A stretch of DNA of 64,000 nucleotides from Prevotella sp. CAG:1185 (GCA_000436695.1 HF992598.1:6715-70714), one strand, 5' to 3'. Counted from the first letter of the stretch, positions 3,893 to 50,000 are shown. A program made the numbers and translations. Notes: generated by a model not told the origin, from the sequence alone.

Positions 3893-4348
3893 ATGAAAAT
3901 TTCTTTCTTAACAATAGTTTGTCTATTAATTTTCTATTCCTGTACAGAACATTACGAATCTGAAGACGAAGAAAAGATTATTTCGACCACTGACAGTTTT
4001 GCCACACATTATTTTAATTACAATCTAAAAGAGGCCATGCCGTTCTGTACACCAGAGTCAGAAAAATGGATAAGATATAAAGCAAGCAACATTTTTCAGG
4101 AGGATATAGATGTGCTGAGAAACCAAGACGAAGGGGCTACGCACAAGACAGACGACATTACATATGTAAACGACACATCAGCCATAGTGAAATGCCATGT
4201 GTACAATGTCATGAAAACTGACACTATAGGAAAGCCGGGGAGAATTTCAGAACATGAAATATATAACATAAGCCTCGTGAAACGTGACGATAAATGGCTT
4301 GTTAAAATGGAAGGCCCACTGCAAAGTGAAAAGCAAAATCGCGACTGA
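3893..4348 (+). CDS. Hypothetical lipoprotein
   Basis: Lipobox-like N-terminus MKISFLTIVCLLIFYSC. No family recognised. The ORF sits in the gap between two minus-strand genes. Confidence 0.6.
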   Translation: MKISFLTIVCLLIFYSCTEHYESEDEEKIISTTDSFATHYFNYNLKEAMPFCTPESEKWIRYKASNIFQEDIDVLRNQDEGATHKTDDITYVNDTSAIVKCHVYNVMKTDTIGKPGRISEHEIYNISLVKRDDKWLVKMEGPLQSEKQNRD

Positions 4349-6536
4349 AGTCCGGATGGAAGATAGCATAATGTTCCTGCTGAGTGTCATAAGCCGGATT
4401 TATAGCTTTCATGCCCATGTCAAAACGCAGAATGAAGAAATCGAAATTAAATCTTATGCCCACACCATAGGCCACAGCTATTTGCTTATAGAAGTCTTTA
4501 ATATTAAACTGACCGCCGGGCTGCTCTTCATAATAACGTAATGTCCAGATGTTTCCGGCATCAACAAACACTGCTCCATAAATCTTCCAGAACAGGAAAG
4601 AACGGTATTCAAGGTTAAGGTCTAACTTAATGTCACCTGTCTGGTTGATAAAATCAATAGAACCATTAGTACCTTTAAATTTACCCGGACCCAATCCGCG
4701 TACGCTCCATCCGCGGACAGAGTTAGCACCGCCTGAGAAATAACGTTTTTCGAAAGGAAGAATCCGGCTGTTGCCATACGGATAAGCTATACCGAAACCT
4801 ATATGAAAAGCCAAATTGTTGCGCGAATCAAAACGGAACATGCGCGTATAATCAAAGTCGCCCTTTACATACTGCGCAAAGGCTATATTAAATAAGGTGT
4901 ACTGATTGTCACTGTTTACATTGGTACCAATAAGTCGGGATATTCCGTTAAGCAAATTTCCGGCTGTTTCAACATTAAACTTGTATGCTTCATCGCCGTT
5001 GTTAAACGACATACCGAAACCAAGTTTCATTATGAACAGGTCTTCATAGTTATACCTTAATATAGAATTACGGCTGTCAACATCGTCAAGATACTCTTCC
5101 TTAAATGTCCGTGAAATCCAAGGCATATAGATATAGTTAAGGTCAATAAGGTCAACACTGTATTTACGCTTGCGCACAGCATCATCCCAGCGGTAGCGTA
5201 ATCCGGCAGAAAACACACGGCGGTGAAATTCAGGACGGTTCTGCATATTATAGCTTGCAGAAAGTTCTGTGATTGCAGCCGACTGCTTTTTAAAATTACG
5301 CGACAGGAACGGAACGACAAGGCGCGGAAAAACAAGTTTGGTTTCCAGGCTATATTCCTCATAGTCTTGATTCTGATAGCCTTCAAGTCCGGTTATTGCC
5401 TCAAACGCCCCGCGCAATTTTATACTGAAAGTCTCGGCACCCCTGAAAATATTCTTATTTTCATAAGTCAGAGACGCCGCAGCACCAAAGTCGCCGGCTG
5501 TATTGGTTCCTTCAGGCTGAAAGATTACGCTGTTGATTTTATTGGTACTAATACCGATGTCGCAATTAAGCTTGTCGCTGTCAGGAATCTCATTAAACTT
5601 AATGTTCGTATATTTTACAATCTGCAAACGACTAAATCTGTTATATGTTTTCTGAAGAGCCTCTGAATTAAAATAAGCACCAGACTCTATCAAAGTGTTT
5701 TCCTCAAGCACCGACTGGCGCAAAGGCACTTTATTACTTTCATCGTTACTATAATATGTAACGTCGCCTATCTTGTAACGTGTATGTTCAACTTCAGGAC
5801 TTTTGCCGCCACCGCTGAATTTATGCAAATGCAGAGTTATGCCAACATCAGTGCTTCCGCTTACAGAATCGGCAGAATAGGTGATAAAGTCCTTATGAAA
5901 TTTAAAATATCCATTATTGTTAAGATAACCGGTTATGGCCTTGCGCTCATTGTCAAGTTCGTTGGTAAGAAATGGCATTCCGGCACGCAATCCAGGTTTA
6001 AATCCGCCATTAGTGCCAATTTTCAAAAAATCGGCCACACCCTTATCCTGAATGTCATAATTAACAGAGTTTATATGATACTGCGGACCGGAATGAAGAT
6101 TATAGACCACAACGACCTTCTTTTTCTTTTTAAAATCCAGATTATAATCAACTCTGGCTCTTAAATATCCCAAACCCTGCAATACATTTTCAAGATCAGA
6201 ACACGTCATTCCGGCTTGAACAGAATCAAACAGCACCGGCATTTCACCTAAATCACGAAACTTTCTGTTTATCCATTTTGTAGAATCCTTGCCGGAAAGG
6301 GCATAGGTGCCGAGAGGTATCTTAAACATCGAAAACCACTTTGAATTACCCTTCTGCCGTATATACGGCTCAAGCCTGTCCGGATGCAGGCTCTTATTGT
6401 CAGATATCACCTTGACATCATCCAGCAGATACTTCCCTTCCGGTATGAACTTAGAAGCCGAACACCCTGACAATACTGCCAATAAGGGTATCAGTGAAAT
6501 AAATAAAAAAATATATTTAGATACCTGTTTTACCAT
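4302..6536 (-). CDS. Omp85-superfamily (BamA/TamA-like, surface antigen D15) outer-membrane protein
   Basis: 744 aa with a signal/lipobox (LAVLSGCSA) and a POTRA-like N-terminal half. The C-terminal beta-barrel region ends in the typical aromatic terminus ...FAVGLPF. Confidence 0.85.
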   Translation of the reverse strand: MVKQVSKYIFLFISLIPLLAVLSGCSASKFIPEGKYLLDDVKVISDNKSLHPDRLEPYIRQKGNSKWFSMFKIPLGTYALSGKDSTKWINRKFRDLGEMPVLFDSVQAGMTCSDLENVLQGLGYLRARVDYNLDFKKKKKVVVVYNLHSGPQYHINSVNYDIQDKGVADFLKIGTNGGFKPGLRAGMPFLTNELDNERKAITGYLNNNGYFKFHKDFITYSADSVSGSTDVGITLHLHKFSGGGKSPEVEHTRYKIGDVTYYSNDESNKVPLRQSVLEENTLIESGAYFNSEALQKTYNRFSRLQIVKYTNIKFNEIPDSDKLNCDIGISTNKINSVIFQPEGTNTAGDFGAAASLTYENKNIFRGAETFSIKLRGAFEAITGLEGYQNQDYEEYSLETKLVFPRLVVPFLSRNFKKQSAAITELSASYNMQNRPEFHRRVFSAGLRYRWDDAVRKRKYSVDLIDLNYIYMPWISRTFKEEYLDDVDSRNSILRYNYEDLFIMKLGFGMSFNNGDEAYKFNVETAGNLLNGISRLIGTNVNSDNQYTLFNIAFAQYVKGDFDYTRMFRFDSRNNLAFHIGFGIAYPYGNSRILPFEKRYFSGGANSVRGWSVRGLGPGKFKGTNGSIDFINQTGDIKLDLNLEYRSFLFWKIYGAVFVDAGNIWTLRYYEEQPGGQFNIKDFYKQIAVAYGVGIRFNFDFFILRFDMGMKAINPAYDTQQEHYAIFHPDFSRDFAFHFAVGLPF

Positions 6537-45576: not shown

Positions 45577-46100
45577 TATTGATGCGCCTCCTCCGCATTC
45601 TGTCCGTCCTGCTCATACTCAGGTTTGTCGTCAACCTCAGTTTTTTTCAGGGTCTGATTGTGCTCAAACACATCCATTATCTGAGTTTCAGCTATGCTTG
45701 CAATAACATAGTCGATCATTGTTCCGCCCATAACCTCGTCGATGCTCTTTACTGCACCCGGCAATGTGCTGCCGTGTACGAGATAATTGACAGTAGATTT
45801 TTTCTCTTTTTCTGTTTTCTCGTCGATGGTTATAAACTGCAGTTTAGCCTTATACCAACGGTCGGCTGAAGGAGAATCGCTGAAGAATATTTCGCCATAA
45901 GCAGCTTTCTTGATATCCTTAACCTCAAACTCGCCACTTATGTAAGACGACATCTCTTCGATTATGCTTGCCTCAGCTTCAGTAAAGCTGAGCGCATCTA
46001 CAACATACTGCTCCGTTACTTTCTTCTGACTTCCGTCTTCCATTGTCTTTTCGTAACGTATTTTGCATTCAAACCATGTTGATGTTCTGCTTCTCATCAT
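45576..46100 (-). CDS. DUF4494-like protein
   Basis: WFECKIRYEKTMEDGSQKKVTEQYVVDALSFTEAEA is recalled as DUF4494. Its stop overlaps the yggS start (TAATG). Confidence 0.75.
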   Translation of the reverse strand: MMRSRTSTWFECKIRYEKTMEDGSQKKVTEQYVVDALSFTEAEASIIEEMSSYISGEFEVKDIKKAAYGEIFFSDSPSADRWYKAKLQFITIDEKTEKEKKSTVNYLVHGSTLPGAVKSIDEVMGGTMIDYVIASIAETQIMDVFEHNQTLKKTEVDDKPEYEQDGQNAEEAHQ

Positions 46101-46178: not shown

Positions 46179-46299
46179 ATTAAATATCCCGACAACACAA
46201 AATCAATCTGAATAAAAGAATATAGTTAACCATAATTATATATTAACAACAATTCAATAATGTAAATTACTTTATTGTATCTAAGATACTTATTACGAA

Positions 46300-46929
46300 T
46301 TAAAACTTTTCCAACCTGATATGTTCAACATAAACATTTTTACCCATTCTAGTTGCATTGTCATTCATTAGAACCCCAGAATAACCATCTTTAACTATTA
46401 ATATCATTTTATAATTGTACATAGAACCATCATTATCGTAAGCCTTACCAATATTTGAATTAATATATATTTCTTGTCCTTTATTCACATAGAAATAATC
46501 ATTAACTTTATTAAGAGCGTAACAAACAAATTCTTTATCACGTTGGATTTCATATTTCTTCATCTCATAACAATATGAAGCTTCATAATCAATAAGCAAA
46601 TATACTGTTCCGTTTTTGTACAAACCAACTTCACCTTTTCCAAATCCATCTACTATATTCCAATATCCAACTTCTTTATATTCAGACATCAATTTACTTA
46701 TATATGCCTGTTTATTTTTCCCATTTAAATCAATAATATTTATCTGATAATCCAAGTAATCTGGCATACTATCCGACTCTTTACAAACATTATTAGTACT
46801 ATTTGAGATAGAATCATTTATCGTATTATTTATATTAGATTGGTTTGGTTTAAACAAAAATGCCAAATACAAACAAAATATAACAATAATAATAAAGATA
46901 AATTTTACAGCAGGTAATATACTTTTCAT
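46300..46929 (-). CDS. Island gene 4: hypothetical N-terminally membrane-anchored protein (209 aa)
   Basis: A TM/signal anchor VKFIFIIIVIFCLYLAFLF, an Asn/Ser-rich linker (NQSNINNTINDSISNSTNN), then a Tyr/Asn/Lys-rich domain. No family recognised. Confidence 0.6.
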   Translation of the reverse strand: MKSILPAVKFIFIIIVIFCLYLAFLFKPNQSNINNTINDSISNSTNNVCKESDSMPDYLDYQINIIDLNGKNKQAYISKLMSEYKEVGYWNIVDGFGKGEVGLYKNGTVYLLIDYEASYCYEMKKYEIQRDKEFVCYALNKVNDYFYVNKGQEIYINSNIGKAYDNDGSMYNYKMILIVKDGYSGVLMNDNATRMGKNVYVEHIRLEKF

Positions 46930-46961
46930 TTTAATATATAATTAATATTTATCATTAAACT

Positions 46962-47336
46962 TTAATTTTTATCTAGAAAGCTTGTAGGGATGTATACTTC
47001 TACACGATATCCATCTTCACTAGAAACTCTAACTTTTGTATACACGACTCCCCCTTCTATGACGACACATTCTTGTCCTGGGGCAATCATATAAGCCTTC
47101 CCCGAAATTAATAAATTCATTACGCCTTCCGAATCATGATTTGATGCATATCGTCCATACATTTTTGCAGTTTCTTTGTCTACACATCCTATGCATTCGG
47201 TATTTGTTATCATTATAGAAGGCTTACCACCATAACTGTCAACACCACCATTACATAGACTTAACATCCAAATAAACATCAATGAAAAAAAAAGTATTAT
47301 ATATCTTTTTTTTATTTTAAATTCTGTATTTTCCAT
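46962..47336 (-). CDS. Island gene 3: hypothetical small lipoprotein (124 aa)
   Basis: Hydrophobic N-terminus with lipobox-like LSLCNGG, followed by a small beta-rich domain. The start lies 7 nt after the stop of the nuclease gene. Confidence 0.6.
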   Translation of the reverse strand: MENTEFKIKKRYIILFFSLMFIWMLSLCNGGVDSYGGKPSIMITNTECIGCVDKETAKMYGRYASNHDSEGVMNLLISGKAYMIAPGQECVVIEGGVVYTKVRVSSEDGYRVEVYIPTSFLDKN

Positions 47337-47343
47337 AAAAGTA

Positions 47344-47907
47344 TCATTTTTTCCGCAGTTCTTTTAATAATTCACGAAAGTCTTCATTAATAGTATTATT
47401 ATTCATTTTTATATTCAATGGAGGATTATAAGAATTTATTAGCTCTTTTTCAATCTCTTCAATATTTATCACATTTTTCTCTTCTCTAAAAAACAACAAT
47501 AAATTGTGTTTCATCCATTCAGACAATTTGTTTTCATCTACTTCCAAAAATTTTGTTTTTCCATTAAAAGGGTTATTTTTATCTCTTGGTATTTTTTTGA
47601 ATCCCATAAGGCTACCTAATGATTTACGCAAAGTAGACTTACCTGAATTATTTCCTGCAAAATGTTGTTTATAATCTCTATTTTTAAGACTTTTTTTACT
47701 AATTCCCGTATAAATAACATCATAACAACATCCGTTATAACAATATTGACATAAGACTGGACTTATGCTCACCTTTGGCAATTTAGCAGAATGTTTTAAT
47801 GCAATAATATAATTTCCTGATGTATCCGGTAGAAACTCGAATAAATCCTTATCAGGATTAAGCATTCTAAAAACTAATTTTTTAATTTTTTCGCCTTTCA
47901 TTTTCAT
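47344..47907 (-). CDS. Island gene 2: GIY-YIG-like nuclease-domain protein (187 aa)
   Basis: Motif order is SGNYIIAL (GIY-like), VIYTGISKKSLKNRDYKQHF (YIG plus conserved Arg/His; compare I-TevI VYVGSAKDFEKRWKRHF), GKSTLRKSLGSLMG, LSEWM, and EKELINSYNPPLN (Glu/Asn). The assignment is from motifs only. Confidence 0.6.
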   Translation of the reverse strand: MKMKGEKIKKLVFRMLNPDKDLFEFLPDTSGNYIIALKHSAKLPKVSISPVLCQYCYNGCCYDVIYTGISKKSLKNRDYKQHFAGNNSGKSTLRKSLGSLMGFKKIPRDKNNPFNGKTKFLEVDENKLSEWMKHNLLLFFREEKNVINIEEIEKELINSYNPPLNIKMNNNTINEDFRELLKELRKK

Positions 47908-48046
47908 TAAATTTTAAGAATCCCAATAAGGCTCCGATTCTAGGATTAAGGTTAATATATAGGAAAGTGTGGAGCCGCTGTTTATTTCTGGAAGGCTCTG
48001 GTAAAACCTGGACGTAACAAACAACACCCCACACTTGAACATTTCA

Positions 48047-48059
48047 TGTGAAATTCACA
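48047..48059. promoter_or_regulatory. Perfect palindrome TGTGAA-A-TTCACA in the island spacer (candidate operator)
   Basis: tgtgaaattcaca has 6-bp arms around a single central base. It lies in the presumed leader of the nuclease operon. Confidence 0.4.
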
Positions 48060-48183
48060 CGAAAACACCAAGTGACGAGAGTGATCATTTATCCACGTCC
48101 TTTTGAAATTTACCAGATTTCCCAGAAGGATAAAAGCAACACTTTCATCAATTCATTTGACCTGTCTAAACAGGAATATGGTA

Positions 48184-48215
48184 CAAAATTAAATATTTTT
48201 TCCCATTCAAACAAA
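48184..48215 (-). promoter_or_regulatory. Candidate promoter of the nuclease operon (-7 TAATTTTG, -33 TTTG)
   Basis: Plus-strand caaaatta (48184-91) is TAATTTTG on the minus strand. Plus-strand caaacaaa (48208-15) is TTTGTTTG, 16-20 nt upstream. The site lies just after the WYL gene stop. Confidence 0.4.
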
Positions 48216-48261
48216 TTGTGGGGGTCTTTTTATTTAAATATTTTGTGTCATTTTCCACACA

Positions 48262-49176
48262 TCATGAGTTTCTCAAAAAAGCCTCCTTATAAATACTTTT
48301 TATCCGTTCACGTAAAGATTTAGGTTTAATCACTTCAACTGAACGGCTGCGAGATAGTAGCTCCATTATAAAATCATTTGTTATTCGAAGACGTAATGAT
48401 ATACGAAACTCGACATCGTTATCTGTTATTATCCGCTGTGAATGATGAATCGGAGCAGACTTTATAAAACAACCATCCAATGCATCATATCTCAATTCTA
48501 CATCTTCTACAGGAATATTGACGTCATTCCAAATGCCATAACAATCTTTAAATAATTCTACAACATTAATATCTAAATTACGCACAAACGATTCGTTCCT
48601 AATCACCTGAAGACTTCTTATTCTATCTATACCGAAAGTTTTCATTTTATTACCATCAAAAGCGAGAAGATACCAACGTTGATTAGATTCTTTTAAATAA
48701 TGCGGATATACATGATATCTGTTAATTCTATTACCATTTCGATAATCCACATAAGAAAAATCTACTGGATTAGTATTCTTTATAGCCTCAACCAAAGATA
48801 TAAGCCATTTACTATATAATGGCCTATGATGTTCAGCAAGCACAAATGATGATAAGTTTGTATCTTTTTCGATAGAATTAATTAAATCAAAATTCATCAT
48901 AAGTTCACTTACACGCTCCTCATATGAACCTACGTTCTCTTCAATATAATATCCTTGTTGAGAACGATCAAACTTAATATAGATACCAAAAAGTTCACCT
49001 ATATCACAAATGTCTCTCTCAATAGTTCTATTGCTTATCGAATTATATCCATAATAACCAGTCATTTTGTCATTAACATAATTAACTAGTTCCGTCTTAG
49101 GAATGTATTTCCTTATTTGCCTTAATTTATTCAATATAAGCAACATTCTCCTTATACCTTCAACTTGCTTACTCAT
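48262..49176 (-). CDS. Island gene 1: WYL-domain transcriptional regulator (HTH-WYL-WCX architecture, BrxR/CapW-like)
   Basis: N-terminal wHTH (RRMLLILNKLRQIRKYIPKTELVNYV), a WYL core (NQRWYLLAFDGNKMKTFGIDRIRSL), and a C-terminal extension domain. Confidence 0.85.
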   Translation of the reverse strand: MSKQVEGIRRMLLILNKLRQIRKYIPKTELVNYVNDKMTGYYGYNSISNRTIERDICDIGELFGIYIKFDRSQQGYYIEENVGSYEERVSELMMNFDLINSIEKDTNLSSFVLAEHHRPLYSKWLISLVEAIKNTNPVDFSYVDYRNGNRINRYHVYPHYLKESNQRWYLLAFDGNKMKTFGIDRIRSLQVIRNESFVRNLDINVVELFKDCYGIWNDVNIPVEDVELRYDALDGCFIKSAPIHHSQRIITDNDVEFRISLRLRITNDFIMELLSRSRSVEVIKPKSLRERIKSIYKEAFLRNS

Positions 49177-49197
49177 AATTAATTTATTTTGACATCA

Positions 49198-49205
49198 CAA
49201 AAATA
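49198..49205 (-). promoter_or_regulatory. -7 box TATTTTTG upstream of the WYL regulator gene
   Basis: Plus-strand caaaaata is TATTTTTG on the minus strand, 22 nt upstream of the ATG at 49176. Confidence 0.4.
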
Positions 49206-49208
49206 AGA

Positions 49209-49239
49209 CATCTCAGCGACAATAGATGTCGTTGAGATG
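49209..49239. promoter_or_regulatory. 13-bp inverted repeat abutting the WYL gene promoter (operator candidate and/or terminator of the upstream gene)
   Basis: catctcagcgaca (49209-21) / tgtcgttgagatg (49227-39), with 1 mismatch and a 5-nt loop. An A8 run sits on one side and T-rich sequence on the other. Confidence 0.5.
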
Positions 49240-49316
49240 CAAAAAAAATAATTTTCTAATAAAATCCGTCAAAATAAACAACAATATAAAAATAAGATAA
49301 TACAAAAAATAAGTTA

Positions 49317-50000
49317 TCATTTTTCTTTTATAAATGTCTTAAAATCCTTGCATATCTTTAAAAACAGCATAGGCTCTGAAGCTATTGTATCCCAAAGCCG
49401 CTTGCCGCCGCTGAGAACGTGCTTGTCCACATAGTCGACAAGCTCGGGGTTGGTCTTTTTATAACGTATACGCATGGCATTAAGACTTATTACGTTGCCC
49501 GTCATAAACGGCACTACCACACTGTCGCCTGAAAGACATATTCCATAGATAGTAGAAATGTTCATCTTGCCCAACTGCATGTTTTGAGAGTCTACCCCAT
49601 TCCACCAGTATATCTTGCCGACTTCATTTTCACATTCTACATACACAAACTGCCTTACAGCCCTCTTAGGCTTAAGCAACGAAGGATTGGCTACTATATG
49701 CGATTCAAGATGGTCGTATTTTCCATCGGCTGACGTTTTCTTCACAAAGTCGATACTTTTAACATTATCAGCATTATACGAAACGGCATTGTTGCCGTCG
49801 GGACCTGGCGACAAGGTAAACGAAGTGTTCATGCGCTTAAACAGTTTGCCGTCAACCCAATAAGTCTGAACATATCCGTCAACAGTGCTTCCGTCGGTAA
49901 GTGTCAGGCGCACATGATCATTCTCCGGATCACGTTTTTCCTGTGCCAAGGCACAAGCCGAAACGACAATGAATATTATCAGAAAAAACAGTTTGTTCAT
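49317..50000 (-). CDS. Hypothetical exported protein (227 aa)
   Basis: Signal peptide MNKLFFLIIFIVVSACALAQ. Composition is normal, unlike the island. No family recognised. Confidence 0.65.
   Translation of the reverse strand: MNKLFFLIIFIVVSACALAQEKRDPENDHVRLTLTDGSTVDGYVQTYWVDGKLFKRMNTSFTLSPGPDGNNAVSYNADNVKSIDFVKKTSADGKYDHLESHIVANPSLLKPKRAVRQFVYVECENEVGKIYWWNGVDSQNMQLGKMNISTIYGICLSGDSVVVPFMTGNVISLNAMRIRYKKTNPELVDYVDKHVLSGGKRLWDTIASEPMLFLKICKDFKTFIKEK

What the first reader, a model, noticed from the sequence alone, without database searches (positions are those of the whole stretch)
46180..49240. AT-rich 3-kb island: WYL regulator, GIY-YIG-like nuclease and two envelope proteins as a candidate uncharacterised defence/conflict module
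Four same-strand ORFs form one block: a WYL-domain HTH regulator (48262-49176), a GIY-YIG-like protein (47344-47907), a lipobox protein (46962-47336), and a membrane-anchored protein (46300-46929). The block is visibly more AT-rich than its surroundings. My hand counts of 60-nt lines give 33%, 32%, 20% and 32% G+C at 46321, 46741, 46861 and 48661. The flanking core genes give 47% at 45601 and 43% at 49441. The block is wedged between housekeeping genes, with DUF4494-yggS on one side and an exported protein plus menA on the other. WYL-domain regulators of the BrxR/CapW type are established repressors of phage-defence loci such as BREX and CBASS. GIY-YIG is an established nuclease fold (I-TevI, UvrC, Eco29kI). 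The last three genes are tightly packed, with gaps of 7 and 32 nt. I do not recognise this gene combination as any named defence, toxin-antitoxin or restriction system. I see no integrase, transposase, tRNA or flanking direct repeats, so the acquisition route is unclear.
Basis: partly seen in the sequence, partly recalled or inferred. Interest (0 to 1): 0.8.

Follow-up and report, generated by a model that had tools for sequence, protein, structure and literature searches.

The report
WYL/RNA-gated nuclease–membrane protein island
A 3.1-kb strain-variable island in a gut Bacteroidales genome encodes a self-regulating WYL repressor, a previously undescribed highly structured leader RNA, and a GIY-YIG nuclease that is evolutionarily tied (even fused elsewhere) to a membrane-anchored protein, which makes it a plausible but untested new inducible defence-type module.

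Summary
Four co-oriented minus-strand ORFs form an AT-rich block (24-34% G+C against 44-49% in the flanks). The block is a true presence/absence polymorphism: window 46205-49349 replaces about 130 bp in otherwise near-identical strains.

WYL+WCX and a full-length GIY_YIG_2 (PF20815) domain are confirmed. The catalytic GIY/YIG/Arg/Glu/Asn residues are conserved and the fold resembles UvrC.

- **WYL link.** WYL is the commonest neighbour of this nuclease family (11 of 60 species loci, three arrangements). It carries a conserved palindromic operator in its own promoter.
- **Membrane-protein link.** The 209-aa membrane protein belongs to a tiny family. Every known member lies next to a GIY_YIG_2 gene, and one is fused to it.
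- **124-aa protein.** It is an orphan with no supporting evidence.
The 354-nt "spacer" between WYL and the nuclease is a ~270-nt structured 5' leader RNA. It has strong covariation and two conserved, mutually exclusive folds. It matches nothing in Rfam or the literature searched. It is widespread in gut Bacteroidales, mostly in front of envelope-protein operons.

No named defence system matches. There is no defence-island context and there are no phage homologues. A defence function is plausible but unproven.

The parts
46205..49349 (.). Accessory island (3,145 bp), present or absent between strains; replaces about 130 bp of the empty site
   Evidence: blastn of the window against empty-site contigs L001, L002, L005 and L009 and occupied contigs L006 and L007; junction sequences; G+C 0.24-0.34
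49317..49349 (-). Island-borne, diverged 3' end (last ~11 codons) of the flanking 227-aa exported-protein gene (…LKICKDFKTFIKEK, against …LDICREFFNKK in 224-aa empty-site alleles); the left recombination junction
   Evidence: The two C-termini are homologous but diverged, which suggests import by homologous recombination through flanking core genes
49207..49240 (-). Palindromic operator-like site in the WYL promoter (GCATCTCAACGACATCTATTGTCGCTGAGATGTC; core CGACA-N5-TGTCG)
   Evidence: The motif AACGACAT-N3-5-TTGTCG is conserved upstream of WYL genes in window, L075, L081, L015, L072, L030, L027 and L067
49198..49205 (-). -7 box (TATTTTTG) of the WYL promoter; matches the Bacteroidetes consensus TAnnTTTG
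   Evidence: Sequence. The consensus is from established knowledge and no transcript mapping was done
48262..49176 (-). WYL-WCX transcription regulator (304 aa)
   Evidence: Pfam WYL 2.4e-11 and WCX 6.1e-08; PADLOC WYL models 4.3e-27 and 1.1e-15, the latter covering residues 9-288
48184..48215 (-). Promoter of the leader RNA: TTTG(-33) at 48208-48215 and TAATTTTG(-7) at 48184-48191
   Evidence: The -7 box TAnnTTTG is at least 90% conserved across 30 non-redundant RNA loci. No WYL operator lies here
47908..48178 (-). Structured 5' leader RNA (~270 nt). Elements: P0 hairpin 48161-48174; closing helix 48139-48146 with 47963-47970; rod-like multi-helix hairpin in between; long-range helix GGCUCC 47971-47976 with GGAGCC 47930-47935 (the latter in the loop of hairpin 47919-47947)
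   Evidence: 94-97% identity across lineages whose CDS are 87-91% identical. MFE -84.9 kcal/mol, z -5.35 on the sense strand, against -64 on the antisense strand. Covariation: 92.5% paired against 38-47% in slid controls, 156 compensatory cells against 51 expected, 0/500 shuffles. The alternative fold is also conserved. No Rfam match
47344..47907 (-). GIY_YIG_2 family nuclease (187 aa); candidate catalytic residues G31-N-Y33, Y66-T-G68, R77, E153, N165
   Evidence: Pfam 1.1e-38. Invariant or nearly invariant columns in 30 homologues. AF2 pLDDT 90.5. Foldseek: UvrC GIY-YIG domain 1yd6, probability 0.97, TM 0.71
46962..47336 (-). 124-aa predicted secreted protein or lipoprotein (LSLC lipobox-like, Cys28); orphan
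   Evidence: The only relative is 86% identical and lies in the same island. No Pfam, PADLOC or NCBIfam hit
46300..46929 (-). 209-aa membrane-anchored protein: TM helix 5-25, disordered linker, extracytoplasmic all-beta domain 60-209; partner of the nuclease
   Evidence: AF2 model. Only 4 related clusters among 1.84 billion representatives. All are adjacent to a GIY_YIG_2 gene or fused to one: P0126 and L033. No structural match in the PDB

Best explanation
The region is a strain-variable accessory operon, exchanged by homologous recombination through its core-gene flanks. It has two separable layers.

**Regulatory layer**
- A WYL-WCX transcription factor that most likely represses its own promoter through a conserved palindrome. 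This is the BrxR/CapW layout.
- An internal Bacteroidetes-type promoter, followed by a ~270-nt structured leader RNA. The RNA can adopt two conserved, mutually exclusive folds and ends 10-25 nt before the first start codon.

**Effector layer**
- A cytoplasmic GIY-YIG-fold nuclease (GIY_YIG_2).
- A single-pass membrane protein with an extracytoplasmic beta-domain that works with the nuclease.
- An orphan lipoprotein-like protein.

**Proposed mechanism (inferred).** In the resting state, WYL and the leader RNA keep expression of a potentially self-damaging nuclease low. A stress or infection signal sensed by the WYL domain, the RNA, or both, raises expression. The membrane protein then positions or activates the nuclease at the envelope, so that incoming foreign DNA is cut. 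This would be an inducible, envelope-linked defence or exclusion module.

**Shown here**
- Island polymorphism.
- Domain identities.
- Conserved catalytic residues and fold.
- Recurrent WYL-nuclease linkage.
- Nuclease-p209 linkage, including a fusion.
- The operator-like motif.
- RNA structure and covariation.

**Inferred**
- Repression by WYL.
- The inducing signal.
- Nuclease activity and its target.
- The defence phenotype.
For: - **Accessory status.** Empty and occupied alleles occur in strains with the identical DUF4494 protein. G+C is 24-34% against 44-49% in the flanks.
- **WYL.** Pfam and PADLOC hits are significant. The palindrome AACGACAT..TTGTCG is conserved upstream of WYL genes in 8 of 11 loci examined, from several genera, and in the window it is followed directly by a -7 box.
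- **Nuclease.** Full-length PF20815 hit. GIY, YIG, R77, E153 and N165 are conserved. The model is confident and gives a UvrC GIY-YIG match.
- **WYL-nuclease linkage.** WYL is the most frequent neighbour family. It occurs in 11 of 60 species-representative loci, positioned upstream-adjacent, upstream with intervening genes, or downstream-overlapping. It also appears in loci found independently from the RNA.
- **Nuclease-membrane protein linkage.** All relatives of the 209-aa protein found in 1.84 billion representatives are encoded directly after a GIY_YIG_2 gene (L206, L207, L033). In P0126 the domain is fused to a GIY_YIG_2 domain through a TM helix.
- **Zn-ribbon/TM proteins.** A related set of Zn-ribbon/TM proteins (f2) recurs in WYL-RNA-f2-GIY operons.
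- **RNA.**
- **Type I R-M.** Family members sit inside Type I R-M operons in three lineages.
- **Not a phage homing-endonuclease family.** There is no hit in 50,697 phage genomes and no PHROG hit.
Against: - No protein of the effector layer matches any PADLOC defence model.
- The island sits among housekeeping genes. Most GIY_YIG_2 genes elsewhere are also solitary insertions among housekeeping genes, not in recognised defence islands.
- The leader RNA is far more common without the nuclease or WYL. In loci found from the RNA and having enough flank, roughly 14% have GIY_YIG_2 and 30% have a close WYL. The RNA mostly precedes envelope or surface proteins: BspA-type LRR, TonB-domain, OM-barrel-like and DUF4595 proteins. 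The regulatory layer therefore says little about defence specifically.
- The WYL operator is not present at the RNA promoter, so WYL control of the nuclease operon would require read-through.
- The window's 209-aa protein has only about 4 cytoplasmic residues, so physical coupling to a cytoplasmic nuclease is not obvious.
- The fusion protein is known from a single 2.7-kb contig, and its nuclease domain has lost several family-invariant residues.
- There are no functional data.
Confidence: 0.45

Rival explanations
1. Envelope-remodelling 'moron' cassette. The conserved unit is the promoter plus leader RNA, which drives accessory envelope or surface proteins. Here these are the 124-aa and 209-aa proteins, acting for example in surface variation, receptor masking or niche adaptation. 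The nuclease would be an accessory or processing factor tied to the membrane protein, not an anti-phage effector.
For: Starting from the RNA, most loci carry neither GIY_YIG_2 nor WYL. They encode BspA-type LRR proteins (32 loci), OM-barrel-like proteins, DUF4595 lipoproteins, small TM proteins and TonB-domain proteins. Both small proteins of the island are predicted to be extracytoplasmic.
Against: The p209 domain is never seen without an adjacent or fused GIY_YIG_2. This argues that the nuclease is central to that pair and not a passenger. Catalytic residues are under strong conservation. WYL regulators are typically linked to nucleic-acid-sensing and defence or damage responses (established knowledge).
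Confidence: 0.2
2. Selfish, homing-type nuclease cassette. GIY_YIG_2 cuts the empty allele, and the island spreads by recombinational repair with co-conversion of flanks. WYL and the RNA only limit toxicity.
For: - There is no integrase or transposase.
- The junction lies inside a flanking gene whose 3' end is replaced by a diverged homologous version, which resembles a co-conversion tract.
- GIY_YIG_2 genes occur as solitary insertions between unrelated housekeeping genes in many Bacteroidota.
- Long forms add a ~90-aa domain (HARE-HTH in one) at either end, like the DNA-binding modules of homing enzymes.
Against: - No relative was found in 50,697 phage genomes, there is no PHROG hit, and matches to viral GIY-YIG structures are only weak.
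- The island occupies the same single site in all lineages seen.
- Five Prevotella-group loci share one syntenic position, consistent with vertical inheritance.
- Obligate linkage to a membrane protein is not expected for a homing enzyme.
Confidence: 0.12
3. DNA-damage or repair module. The WYL protein acts like PafBC/DriD, as a nucleic-acid-sensing WYL regulator, and induces a GIY-YIG repair or processing nuclease of the UvrC/Cho/Slx1 kind.
For: The best structural match of the nuclease is the UvrC GIY-YIG domain. WYL regulators of damage responses are established (PafBC appears among PDB entries; otherwise own knowledge).
Against: - A strain-variable, AT-rich, patchily distributed gene set is atypical for repair functions.
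- The nuclease is coupled to an extracytoplasmic membrane protein.
- No other repair genes lie in any of the loci.
Confidence: 0.08
4. Toxin-antitoxin-like addiction module. The upstream structured RNA neutralises the nuclease, in a type III TA-like layout: promoter, RNA, leaky terminator, toxin.
For: The layout of promoter, structured RNA and nuclease gene resembles this arrangement. Most family members have a U-tract right after the closing helix.
Against: - The RNA is single-copy, not a tandem repeat.
- It occurs mostly without the nuclease, and the nuclease mostly occurs without it: the RNA is present in 8 of 60 GIY loci, and about 14% of RNA loci have GIY.
- The window's own copy lacks the U-tract.
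Confidence: 0.05

Closest known systems
BrxR/CapW-type WYL repressors placed at the head of phage-defence operons (BREX, CBASS and others)
   Same: - WYL + WCX architecture.
- The gene lies upstream of, and is co-oriented with, a variable effector operon.
- A conserved palindromic site overlaps its own promoter.
- It is associated with different cargo in different genomes.
   Different: - The effectors are not a known defence system.
- A second promoter and a large structured RNA lie between the regulator and the cargo.
- The N-terminal HTH was not detected by Pfam.
- Sequence similarity to solved WYL structures is marginal (E ~0.06).
- Repression and ligand are untested.
GIY-YIG nucleases (UvrC N-terminal domain, R.Eco29kI, I-TevI)
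   Same: The GIY and YIG motifs, and the catalytic Arg, Glu and Asn, are conserved. The predicted fold matches UvrC 1yd6 (probability 0.97) and, weakly, Eco29kI.
   Different: - It belongs to a distinct Pfam family (PF20815), with a ~30-residue insertion between the GIY and YIG motifs and a conserved C-terminal extension.
- There is no sequence-level PDB relative.
- No methyltransferase partner is present, unlike Eco29kI.
- It does not occur in phages or introns, unlike I-TevI.
- Its partner is a membrane protein.
Membrane-sensor-plus-nuclease defence systems such as Zorya (ZorAB with ZorC/D) or Kiwa (KwaA/KwaB); comparison from own knowledge
   Same: The logic is shared. An envelope-embedded component is genetically coupled to a cytoplasmic DNA-targeting component. 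The fusion P0126 places the nuclease domain inside the cell and the beta-domain outside.
   Different: There is no homology to any Zorya or Kiwa protein (no PADLOC hit). The membrane protein is single-pass, not a motor or multi-pass sensor. The mechanism is purely inferred.
Structured cis-regulatory leader RNAs (riboswitches, attenuators, protein-binding leaders) and the type III toxin-antitoxin layout
   Same: - The RNA lies between a conserved promoter and the first ORF and is always co-oriented with it.
- Covariation is strong.
- Two mutually exclusive conserved folds exist.
- Most members have a U-tract after the closing helix.
   Different: - No Rfam 15 family matches.
- The long rod-like shape, with invariant helices, is unlike typical small-molecule aptamers.
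- The downstream genes are heterogeneous envelope proteins rather than one pathway.
- It is not a tandem-repeat antitoxin.

Membership tests
WYL-domain transcription regulators of the BrxR/CapW type | WYL domain present | tested here: met
   Pfam PF13280 2.4e-11, 43.9 bits against a cut-off of 21.8; PADLOC WYL 4.3e-27
WYL-domain transcription regulators of the BrxR/CapW type | C-terminal WCX dimerisation domain | tested here: met
   Pfam PF25583 6.1e-08, 33.3 bits against a cut-off of 23.9
WYL-domain transcription regulators of the BrxR/CapW type | N-terminal winged-HTH DNA-binding domain | tested here: inconclusive
   No Pfam HTH hit. PADLOC full-length WYL-regulator model PDLC01457 aligns residues 9-288, which suggests a homologous N-terminus. 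No structure was predicted for this protein.
WYL-domain transcription regulators of the BrxR/CapW type | Inverted-repeat operator overlapping its own promoter, upstream of the regulated operon | tested here: met
   CGACA-N5-TGTCG lies within a 34-nt palindrome at 49207-49240, next to a -7 box, and is conserved in 8 of 11 loci examined. Binding itself was not tested.
WYL-domain transcription regulators of the BrxR/CapW type | Represses the downstream defence operon and is relieved on infection or stress | not testable with these tools
   Requires EMSA, reporter and infection experiments
GIY-YIG nuclease superfamily | GIY and YIG motifs with catalytic Arg, Glu and Asn | tested here: met
   G31, Y33, Y66, G68, R77 and N165 are invariant; N32, T67 and E153 are at least 90% conserved in 30 homologues
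GIY-YIG nuclease superfamily | GIY-YIG alpha/beta fold | tested here: met
   AF2 pLDDT 90.5; Foldseek 1yd6 (UvrC) probability 0.97, TM 0.69-0.71 on the target
GIY-YIG nuclease superfamily | Metal-dependent nucleic-acid cleavage | not testable with these tools
   Biochemistry needed
Named anti-phage defence systems (PADLOC-DB v2.0.0) | Effector proteins match the system's HMMs | tested here: not met
   For GIY_YIG_2 the only hit is a spurious GajA match at E 0.0068. The 124-aa and 209-aa proteins give nothing.
Type II restriction-modification of the Eco29kI (GIY-YIG) kind | Cognate DNA methyltransferase encoded alongside | tested here: not met
   No methyltransferase ORF lies in or next to the island
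Free-standing or intron-borne GIY-YIG homing endonucleases | Family found in phage genomes or introns; catalytic domain joined to a DNA-binding domain | tested here: not met
   No tblastn hit in 50,697 phage genomes. No PHROG hit below E 0.1. Only weak BFVD matches. The window's protein is a single domain.
Type III toxin-antitoxin systems | Tandemly repeated antitoxin RNA directly upstream of, and specific to, its toxin gene | tested here: not met
   The RNA is single-copy and non-repetitive, and is mostly found without the nuclease
Any Rfam 15 RNA family | Covariance-model score reaches the gathering threshold | tested here: not met
   There are no gathering-level hits in the window. Permissive scans of the region and of five typical members gave only chance-level hits elsewhere.
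Integrase- or transposase-borne genomic island | Recombinase gene, tRNA target or terminal repeats | tested here: not met
   None is present in or beside the island

The most novel reading that the evidence does not exclude
The island is a member of an undescribed trans-envelope immunity system. In it, an extracytoplasmic beta-domain protein with an orphan fold senses or blocks an event at the cell surface and is mechanistically coupled to a cytoplasmic GIY-YIG nuclease.

Expression would be gated by a new class of large conformational-switch leader RNA. This RNA is widespread in human-gut Bacteroidales and controls a whole set of strain-variable envelope-protein cassettes, possibly by sensing an infection- or envelope-stress signal, or by binding the WYL protein.
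Probability: 0.25. Interest if true: 0.85.

Novelty: new variant of a known kind. Interest (0 to 1): 0.72.

Why it matters
Gut Bacteroidales are under heavy phage pressure, yet they carry comparatively few recognised defence systems, and little is known about their RNA-based regulation. If the reading is correct, three things follow.

- **A new candidate defence module.** A nuclease-plus-membrane-protein module would join the WYL-controlled defence repertoire. Gene fusion and obligate adjacency already give unusually good genomic evidence that the two effector proteins act together.
- **A new RNA family.** The leader RNA is a large, strongly covarying RNA with two conserved alternative folds. 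It has at least 119 exact-pattern copies in metagenomes and none in Rfam. It appears to control many strain-variable surface-protein operons in abundant human gut bacteria. That makes the regulation of strain-level surface variation directly testable.
- **An example of flank-mediated exchange.** The clean empty and occupied alleles, with a junction inside a core gene, show how such cassettes can move between species by recombination through flanking genes, without any mobility gene.

Tried and rejected
- **Multicopy MITE or repeat as an explanation for the conserved spacer: rejected.** There is one copy in the 64-kb window. The orientation relative to downstream ORFs is constant, G·U pairs are strand-specific and changes are compensatory.
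- **The RNAalifold two-domain fold as the only structure: rejected.** Every sequence alone folds into the rod and the rod has more covariation. The alternative was kept as a second conserved conformation.
- **The spacer as a WYL operator: rejected.** The operator motif occurs only upstream of WYL.
- **Direct homology of the 209-aa protein to family f2: not supported.** The hmmsearch gave no hit and BLASTP gave E 0.8. The link is indirect. It runs through the L033 278-aa protein, which shares its Zn-ribbon/TM part with f2 and its C-terminal domain with p209.
- **Solved-structure sequence searches: uninformative.** Nothing was found for the nuclease, and E ~0.06 for WYL.
- **Fold search of the p209 model: no credible match**.
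- **Sigma-70 promoter and terminator scan: uninformative for Bacteroidetes**.
- **Literature searches: nothing relevant.** They covered PF20815; WYL + GIY-YIG + defence; GIY-YIG + anti-phage + Bacteroides; and Bacteroides structured RNA motifs.
- **PADLOC scan of 131 neighbours: only three Type I R-M loci**.

Full report
**1. Observation**

G+C drops to 0.24-0.34 between about 46000 and 49400, against 0.44-0.50 on both sides.

Profile searches gave the following:
- WYL (2.4e-11) and WCX (6.1e-08) in the 304-aa protein.
- An end-to-end GIY_YIG_2/PF20815 match (1.1e-38, profile 1-153 of 153) in the 187-aa protein.
- DUF4494, a YggS-type PLP protein and a UbiA/MenA-type prenyltransferase in the flanks.

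The 124-aa and 209-aa proteins match nothing in Pfam, NCBIfam or PADLOC. The 124-aa protein has a hydrophobic N-terminus with an LSLC lipobox-like motif. The 209-aa protein has an N-terminal TM helix. No tRNA exists in the window, and no terminal repeats flank the block.

**2. It is a true accessory island**

I looked up contigs that encode the exact DUF4494 protein of the window. This returned two kinds of locus from human-gut metagenomes. Some have the 224-aa exported-protein gene directly followed by DUF4494 (L001-L005, L009, L010). Others carry WYL, GIY_YIG_2, the 124-aa gene and the 209-aa gene in between (L006-L008; L006 is 100% identical to the window).

blastn places the island at window 46205-49349 (3,145 bp). 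Empty sites hold about 130 unrelated base pairs instead.

The left junction lies inside the exported-protein gene. The last ~11 codons of the occupied allele (…LKICKDFKTFIKEK) are a diverged homologue of the empty allele's end (…LDICREFFNKK). The simplest reading is that the island was imported or exchanged by homologous recombination through the core-gene flanks. This is an inference.

The same four-gene block sits at the same site in more diverged lineages, whose flanking core genes are 77-90% identical at the DNA level. No species-representative genome in the 185,579-species collection carries a close copy; the best match is 58% protein identity. This is consistent with the block being absent, or not fixed, in most genomes of the lineages that carry it.

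**3. The nuclease**

A word-indexed search found 696 relatives. They come in ~180-aa and ~280-aa forms. The long forms add a ~90-residue domain at either the N- or the C-terminus, and one carries HARE-HTH.

G31, Y33, Y66, G68, R77 and N165 are invariant. N32, T67 and E153 are at least 90% conserved. The AlphaFold model is confident (pLDDT 90.5). Its best PDB match is the UvrC GIY-YIG domain (1yd6, probability 0.97), with weaker Eco29kI matches.

Further results on the family:
- There is no sequence-level PDB relative and no PHROG hit.
- There is no tblastn hit in 50,697 phage genomes, and only weak viral fold matches.
- Seven Clostridium estertheticum plasmids carry 41-43%-identical copies, annotated only as 'GIY-YIG nuclease family protein', beside a small tyrosine recombinase.

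The family is therefore cellular, and is not a phage homing-endonuclease family.

**4. Neighbourhoods of the nuclease**

In 60 species-representative loci, almost all from Bacteroidota, the single most recurrent neighbour is a close homologue of the window's WYL protein. It occurs in 11 loci, in three arrangements:
- upstream (L015, L030, L061, L067, L071, L072);
- upstream with intervening genes (L027, L033);
- immediately downstream and overlapping (L016, L017, L043).

Other neighbours are mostly unrelated housekeeping genes, such as serine dehydratase/DsbD, GH43, amylase and peptidase M3. Three loci are embedded between hsdR and hsdS of Type I R-M systems. A PADLOC scan of 131 immediate neighbours found only those three R-M loci. 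So the WYL-nuclease pairing is real, but a 'defence island' context is not.

**5. The membrane protein is tied to the nuclease**

The word-indexed search found only 87-96%-identical copies of the 209-aa protein, and only an 86% copy of the 124-aa protein.

An exhaustive HMMER scan of 1.84 billion representatives found just four related clusters for the 209-aa protein. Their contexts are as follows:
- P0124 is encoded 5 nt after a 275-aa GIY_YIG_2 gene (L206).
- P0125 directly follows a 375-aa GIY_YIG_2 gene (L207).
- P0126 (414 aa) is a fusion of three parts: an N-terminal GIY_YIG_2 domain (Pfam 3.8e-08, above threshold; hhalign probability 97.8%), a TM helix, and the p209-type domain (39% identity, E 2.8e-26).
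- In L033, a 278-aa protein between two GIY_YIG_2 genes shares its C-terminal domain with p209 (2e-09). It shares its N-terminal zinc-ribbon/TM part with family f2 (1e-17). Family f2 recurs in WYL-RNA-f2-GIY_YIG_2 operons.

Every known lineage of this domain is thus adjacent to, or fused with, the nuclease. That is strong genomic evidence for a functional pair.

The fusion topology puts the nuclease in the cytoplasm and the beta-domain outside. The p209 model shows a TM helix at 5-25, a disordered linker, and an all-beta domain at 60-209 with pLDDT about 85-95. It has no credible structural relative in the PDB.

Caveats:
- The fusion comes from one short contig.
- Its nuclease domain has lost several family-invariant residues.
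- The 124-aa protein remains an orphan with no supporting evidence.

**6. The 'spacer' is a structured RNA**

Between the window and the diverged island copies, coding regions are 87-91% identical, but the 354-nt WYL-nuclease spacer is 94-97% identical. A core of about 230 nt is almost invariant and is richer in G+C (38% against 28%).

On the gene-sense strand it folds into a closing helix (GAAAGUGU/ACACUUUC) around a ~65-bp rod. The MFE is -84.9 kcal/mol with z -5.35. The antisense strand reaches only -64, as expected if G·U pairs matter.

nhmmer found the element upstream of GIY_YIG_2 operons in Prevotella, Bacteroides and other Bacteroidales loci. A pattern built from its invariant blocks found at least 119 exact matches in metagenome contigs and one in viral contigs.

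Each sequence alone folds into the same architecture. Pair counts on 30 non-redundant sequences:

| Measure | Observed | Control |
|---|---|---|
| Cells forming a standard pair (69 pairs) | 92.5% | 38-47% in slid controls |
| Compensatory cells | 156 | 51 expected |
| Covariation score | 0.282 | 0.156; 0 of 500 shuffles reach the observed value |

Several positions show four or five pair types.

A long-range helix also covaries (GC against AU, 16:10). It joins RRCUCC, which lies just 5' of the closing helix, to GGAGYY in the loop of a downstream hairpin.

A second, mutually exclusive pairing scheme can form in essentially all sequences. It consists of GAUGA:UCAUC plus GUG:CAC, together with CAAGUGUGGGG:CUCCACACUU. 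It is 96% paired overall, and the second helix is 100% paired. This explains the near-invariance of those segments and suggests a conformational switch.

Other conserved features:
- A Bacteroidetes -7 box (TAnnTTTG) is at least 90% conserved about 45 nt upstream.
- A small hairpin of variable sequence follows the predicted start.
- Most members have a U-tract right after the closing helix, though the window's copy does not.
- The first ORF starts 10-25 nt after the last hairpin.

No Rfam 15 family matches, even at permissive thresholds and for typical members. Text searches found no description.

**7. What the RNA goes with**

I started from the RNA and considered loci with sufficient flank. 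Among these, about 18 of 59 have a close WYL homologue upstream, and about 10 of 69 have GIY_YIG_2 within 3.5 kb downstream. Thirty-six have neither.

In all mapped loci the first downstream gene is co-oriented with the RNA. The commonest is a large BspA-type LRR protein with collagen/tail-fibre-like repeats (32 loci). Others are OM-barrel-like proteins, a DUF4595 lipoprotein, small TM proteins and zinc-ribbon/TM proteins. In an annotated B. finegoldii replicon, the RNA precedes TonB-domain and TPM-domain proteins.

A recurrent fuller arrangement is: WYL, small acidic protein, RNA, 74-aa TM protein, f2, GIY_YIG_2 (L102, L119, L131).

The RNA is therefore a general leader of strain-variable, mostly envelope-related cassettes. 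The window's island is one of these.

**8. Regulation by WYL**

A palindrome lies upstream of the WYL gene (49207-49240; core CGACA-N5-TGTCG), next to a -7 box. The core motif is conserved upstream of WYL genes in 8 of 11 loci examined, from several genera. This is the layout of autorepressing BrxR/CapW-type regulators (established knowledge).

The motif is absent from the RNA's own promoter. WYL control of the effector genes would therefore need read-through from the WYL promoter. Alternatively, it would act through an interaction with the RNA, which is speculative.

**9. Interpretation**

The best-supported reading is a two-layer accessory module.
- **Regulatory layer:** a WYL autorepressor and a switch-like leader RNA.
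- **Effector layer:** a GIY-YIG nuclease paired with an envelope-anchored beta-domain protein.

An inducible, envelope-linked defence or exclusion function is the most likely role (confidence about 0.45). The reasons are the WYL association, the intact nuclease, the patchy strain-level distribution, the Type I R-M embedding in three lineages, and the analogy with membrane-sensor/nuclease systems.

It is not established. There is no match to known systems, no defence-island context and no functional data. The regulatory RNA mostly serves envelope-protein operons without any nuclease.

The rivals are an envelope-remodelling cassette, a selfish homing-type cassette, a damage-response module and an RNA-antitoxin module. 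They are weighed in their own section of this report.

**10. Novelty**

The WYL and GIY-YIG parts are new members of known families. Three elements go beyond what is catalogued in the libraries and papers searched:
- the obligate nuclease/p209-domain pairing, including a fusion;
- the orphan beta-domain fold;
- above all, the large covarying leader RNA with two conserved alternative folds.

I rate the whole as a new variant of a known kind (a WYL-controlled nuclease module). The RNA is a candidate new family that deserves follow-up in its own right.

Noticed in passing
L083-L188 (metagenome loci found from the RNA pattern); e.g. L126, L091, L143, L114: The leader RNA most often precedes large BspA-type LRR proteins with collagen/tail-fibre-like repeats (up to 1,042 aa). 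In L091 and L126, an inverted partial copy of that gene (179 aa) and a tyrosine recombinase gene (f17; Phage_integrase + Arm-DNA-bind_5) lie just upstream. This resembles a shufflon or phase-variation arrangement.
   Followed up: partly
RNA loci without WYL, e.g. L085, L107, L120, L125 (sequences): These loci share a different conserved upstream motif, ACAATACCCC-N3-4-GAGTGTT, about 30 nt before the -7 box. It may be the binding site of another regulator that replaces WYL.
   Followed up: no
L015:9719-9985, L061:9719-9985, L072:9719-9985, L060:4286-4579, L065:9673-9945, L055:1068-1340: A conserved 88-97-aa ORF family with no Pfam match sits between the leader RNA and GIY_YIG_2 in Prevotella-type loci. 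It is absent from the window's island.
   Followed up: partly
Proteins P0026, P0055, P0064 (C-terminal extension) against P0070-P0115 (N-terminal extension); P0112: Long-form GIY_YIG_2 proteins carry the same ~90-aa domain (…FT..E…L..LI..R……QK.IR.KMR..GFYG.DDFGI…) at either the N- or the C-terminus, which is a domain-order permutation. In P0112 a HARE-HTH (PF05066) takes its place. This suggests a swappable DNA-binding module.
   Followed up: no
L031, L034, L038: Here GIY_YIG_2 genes are inserted between hsdR (ResIII/EcoEI_R_C) and hsdS of Type I restriction-modification operons. A published inversion survey (PMC9881135) likewise lists a GIY-YIG CDS between Type I core genes.
   Followed up: partly
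L207:2075-2790: The WG-repeat protein, GIY_YIG_2 and p209-like operon of L207 has a ~700-nt upstream non-coding region that lacks this RNA family. It may hold a different leader.
   Followed up: no
Empty site L001:7860-7900, against window 46190-46215: The empty allele has a hairpin (ATCCCGA-N10-TCGGGAT), probably the terminator of the exported-protein gene. The right junction of the island removes its left arm, so the occupied allele keeps only …TTGTGTTGTCGGGAT.
   Followed up: no
window 49317-50000 (227-aa exported protein) and homologues in L001-L010: This core-genome secreted protein has no family assignment, apart from a weak sub-threshold DUF2867 hit. Its C-terminus differs between island-positive (227 aa) and island-negative (224 aa) alleles.
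   Followed up: partly
L147 (elements at 3938-4062 and 5411-5540 of the locus): Two copies of the leader RNA lie about 1.5 kb apart on one contig, so cassettes headed by this RNA can be stacked.
   Followed up: no
MT838511.1:1853-2058 and MT836914.1:4266-4460 (phage-bin records); L082 (IMG/VR contig): Copies of the leader RNA occur on three short contigs labelled viral or bacteriophage, from human faecal samples. The two GenBank records carry no annotation. It is unclear whether these are real phages or mis-binned bacterial DNA.
   Followed up: no
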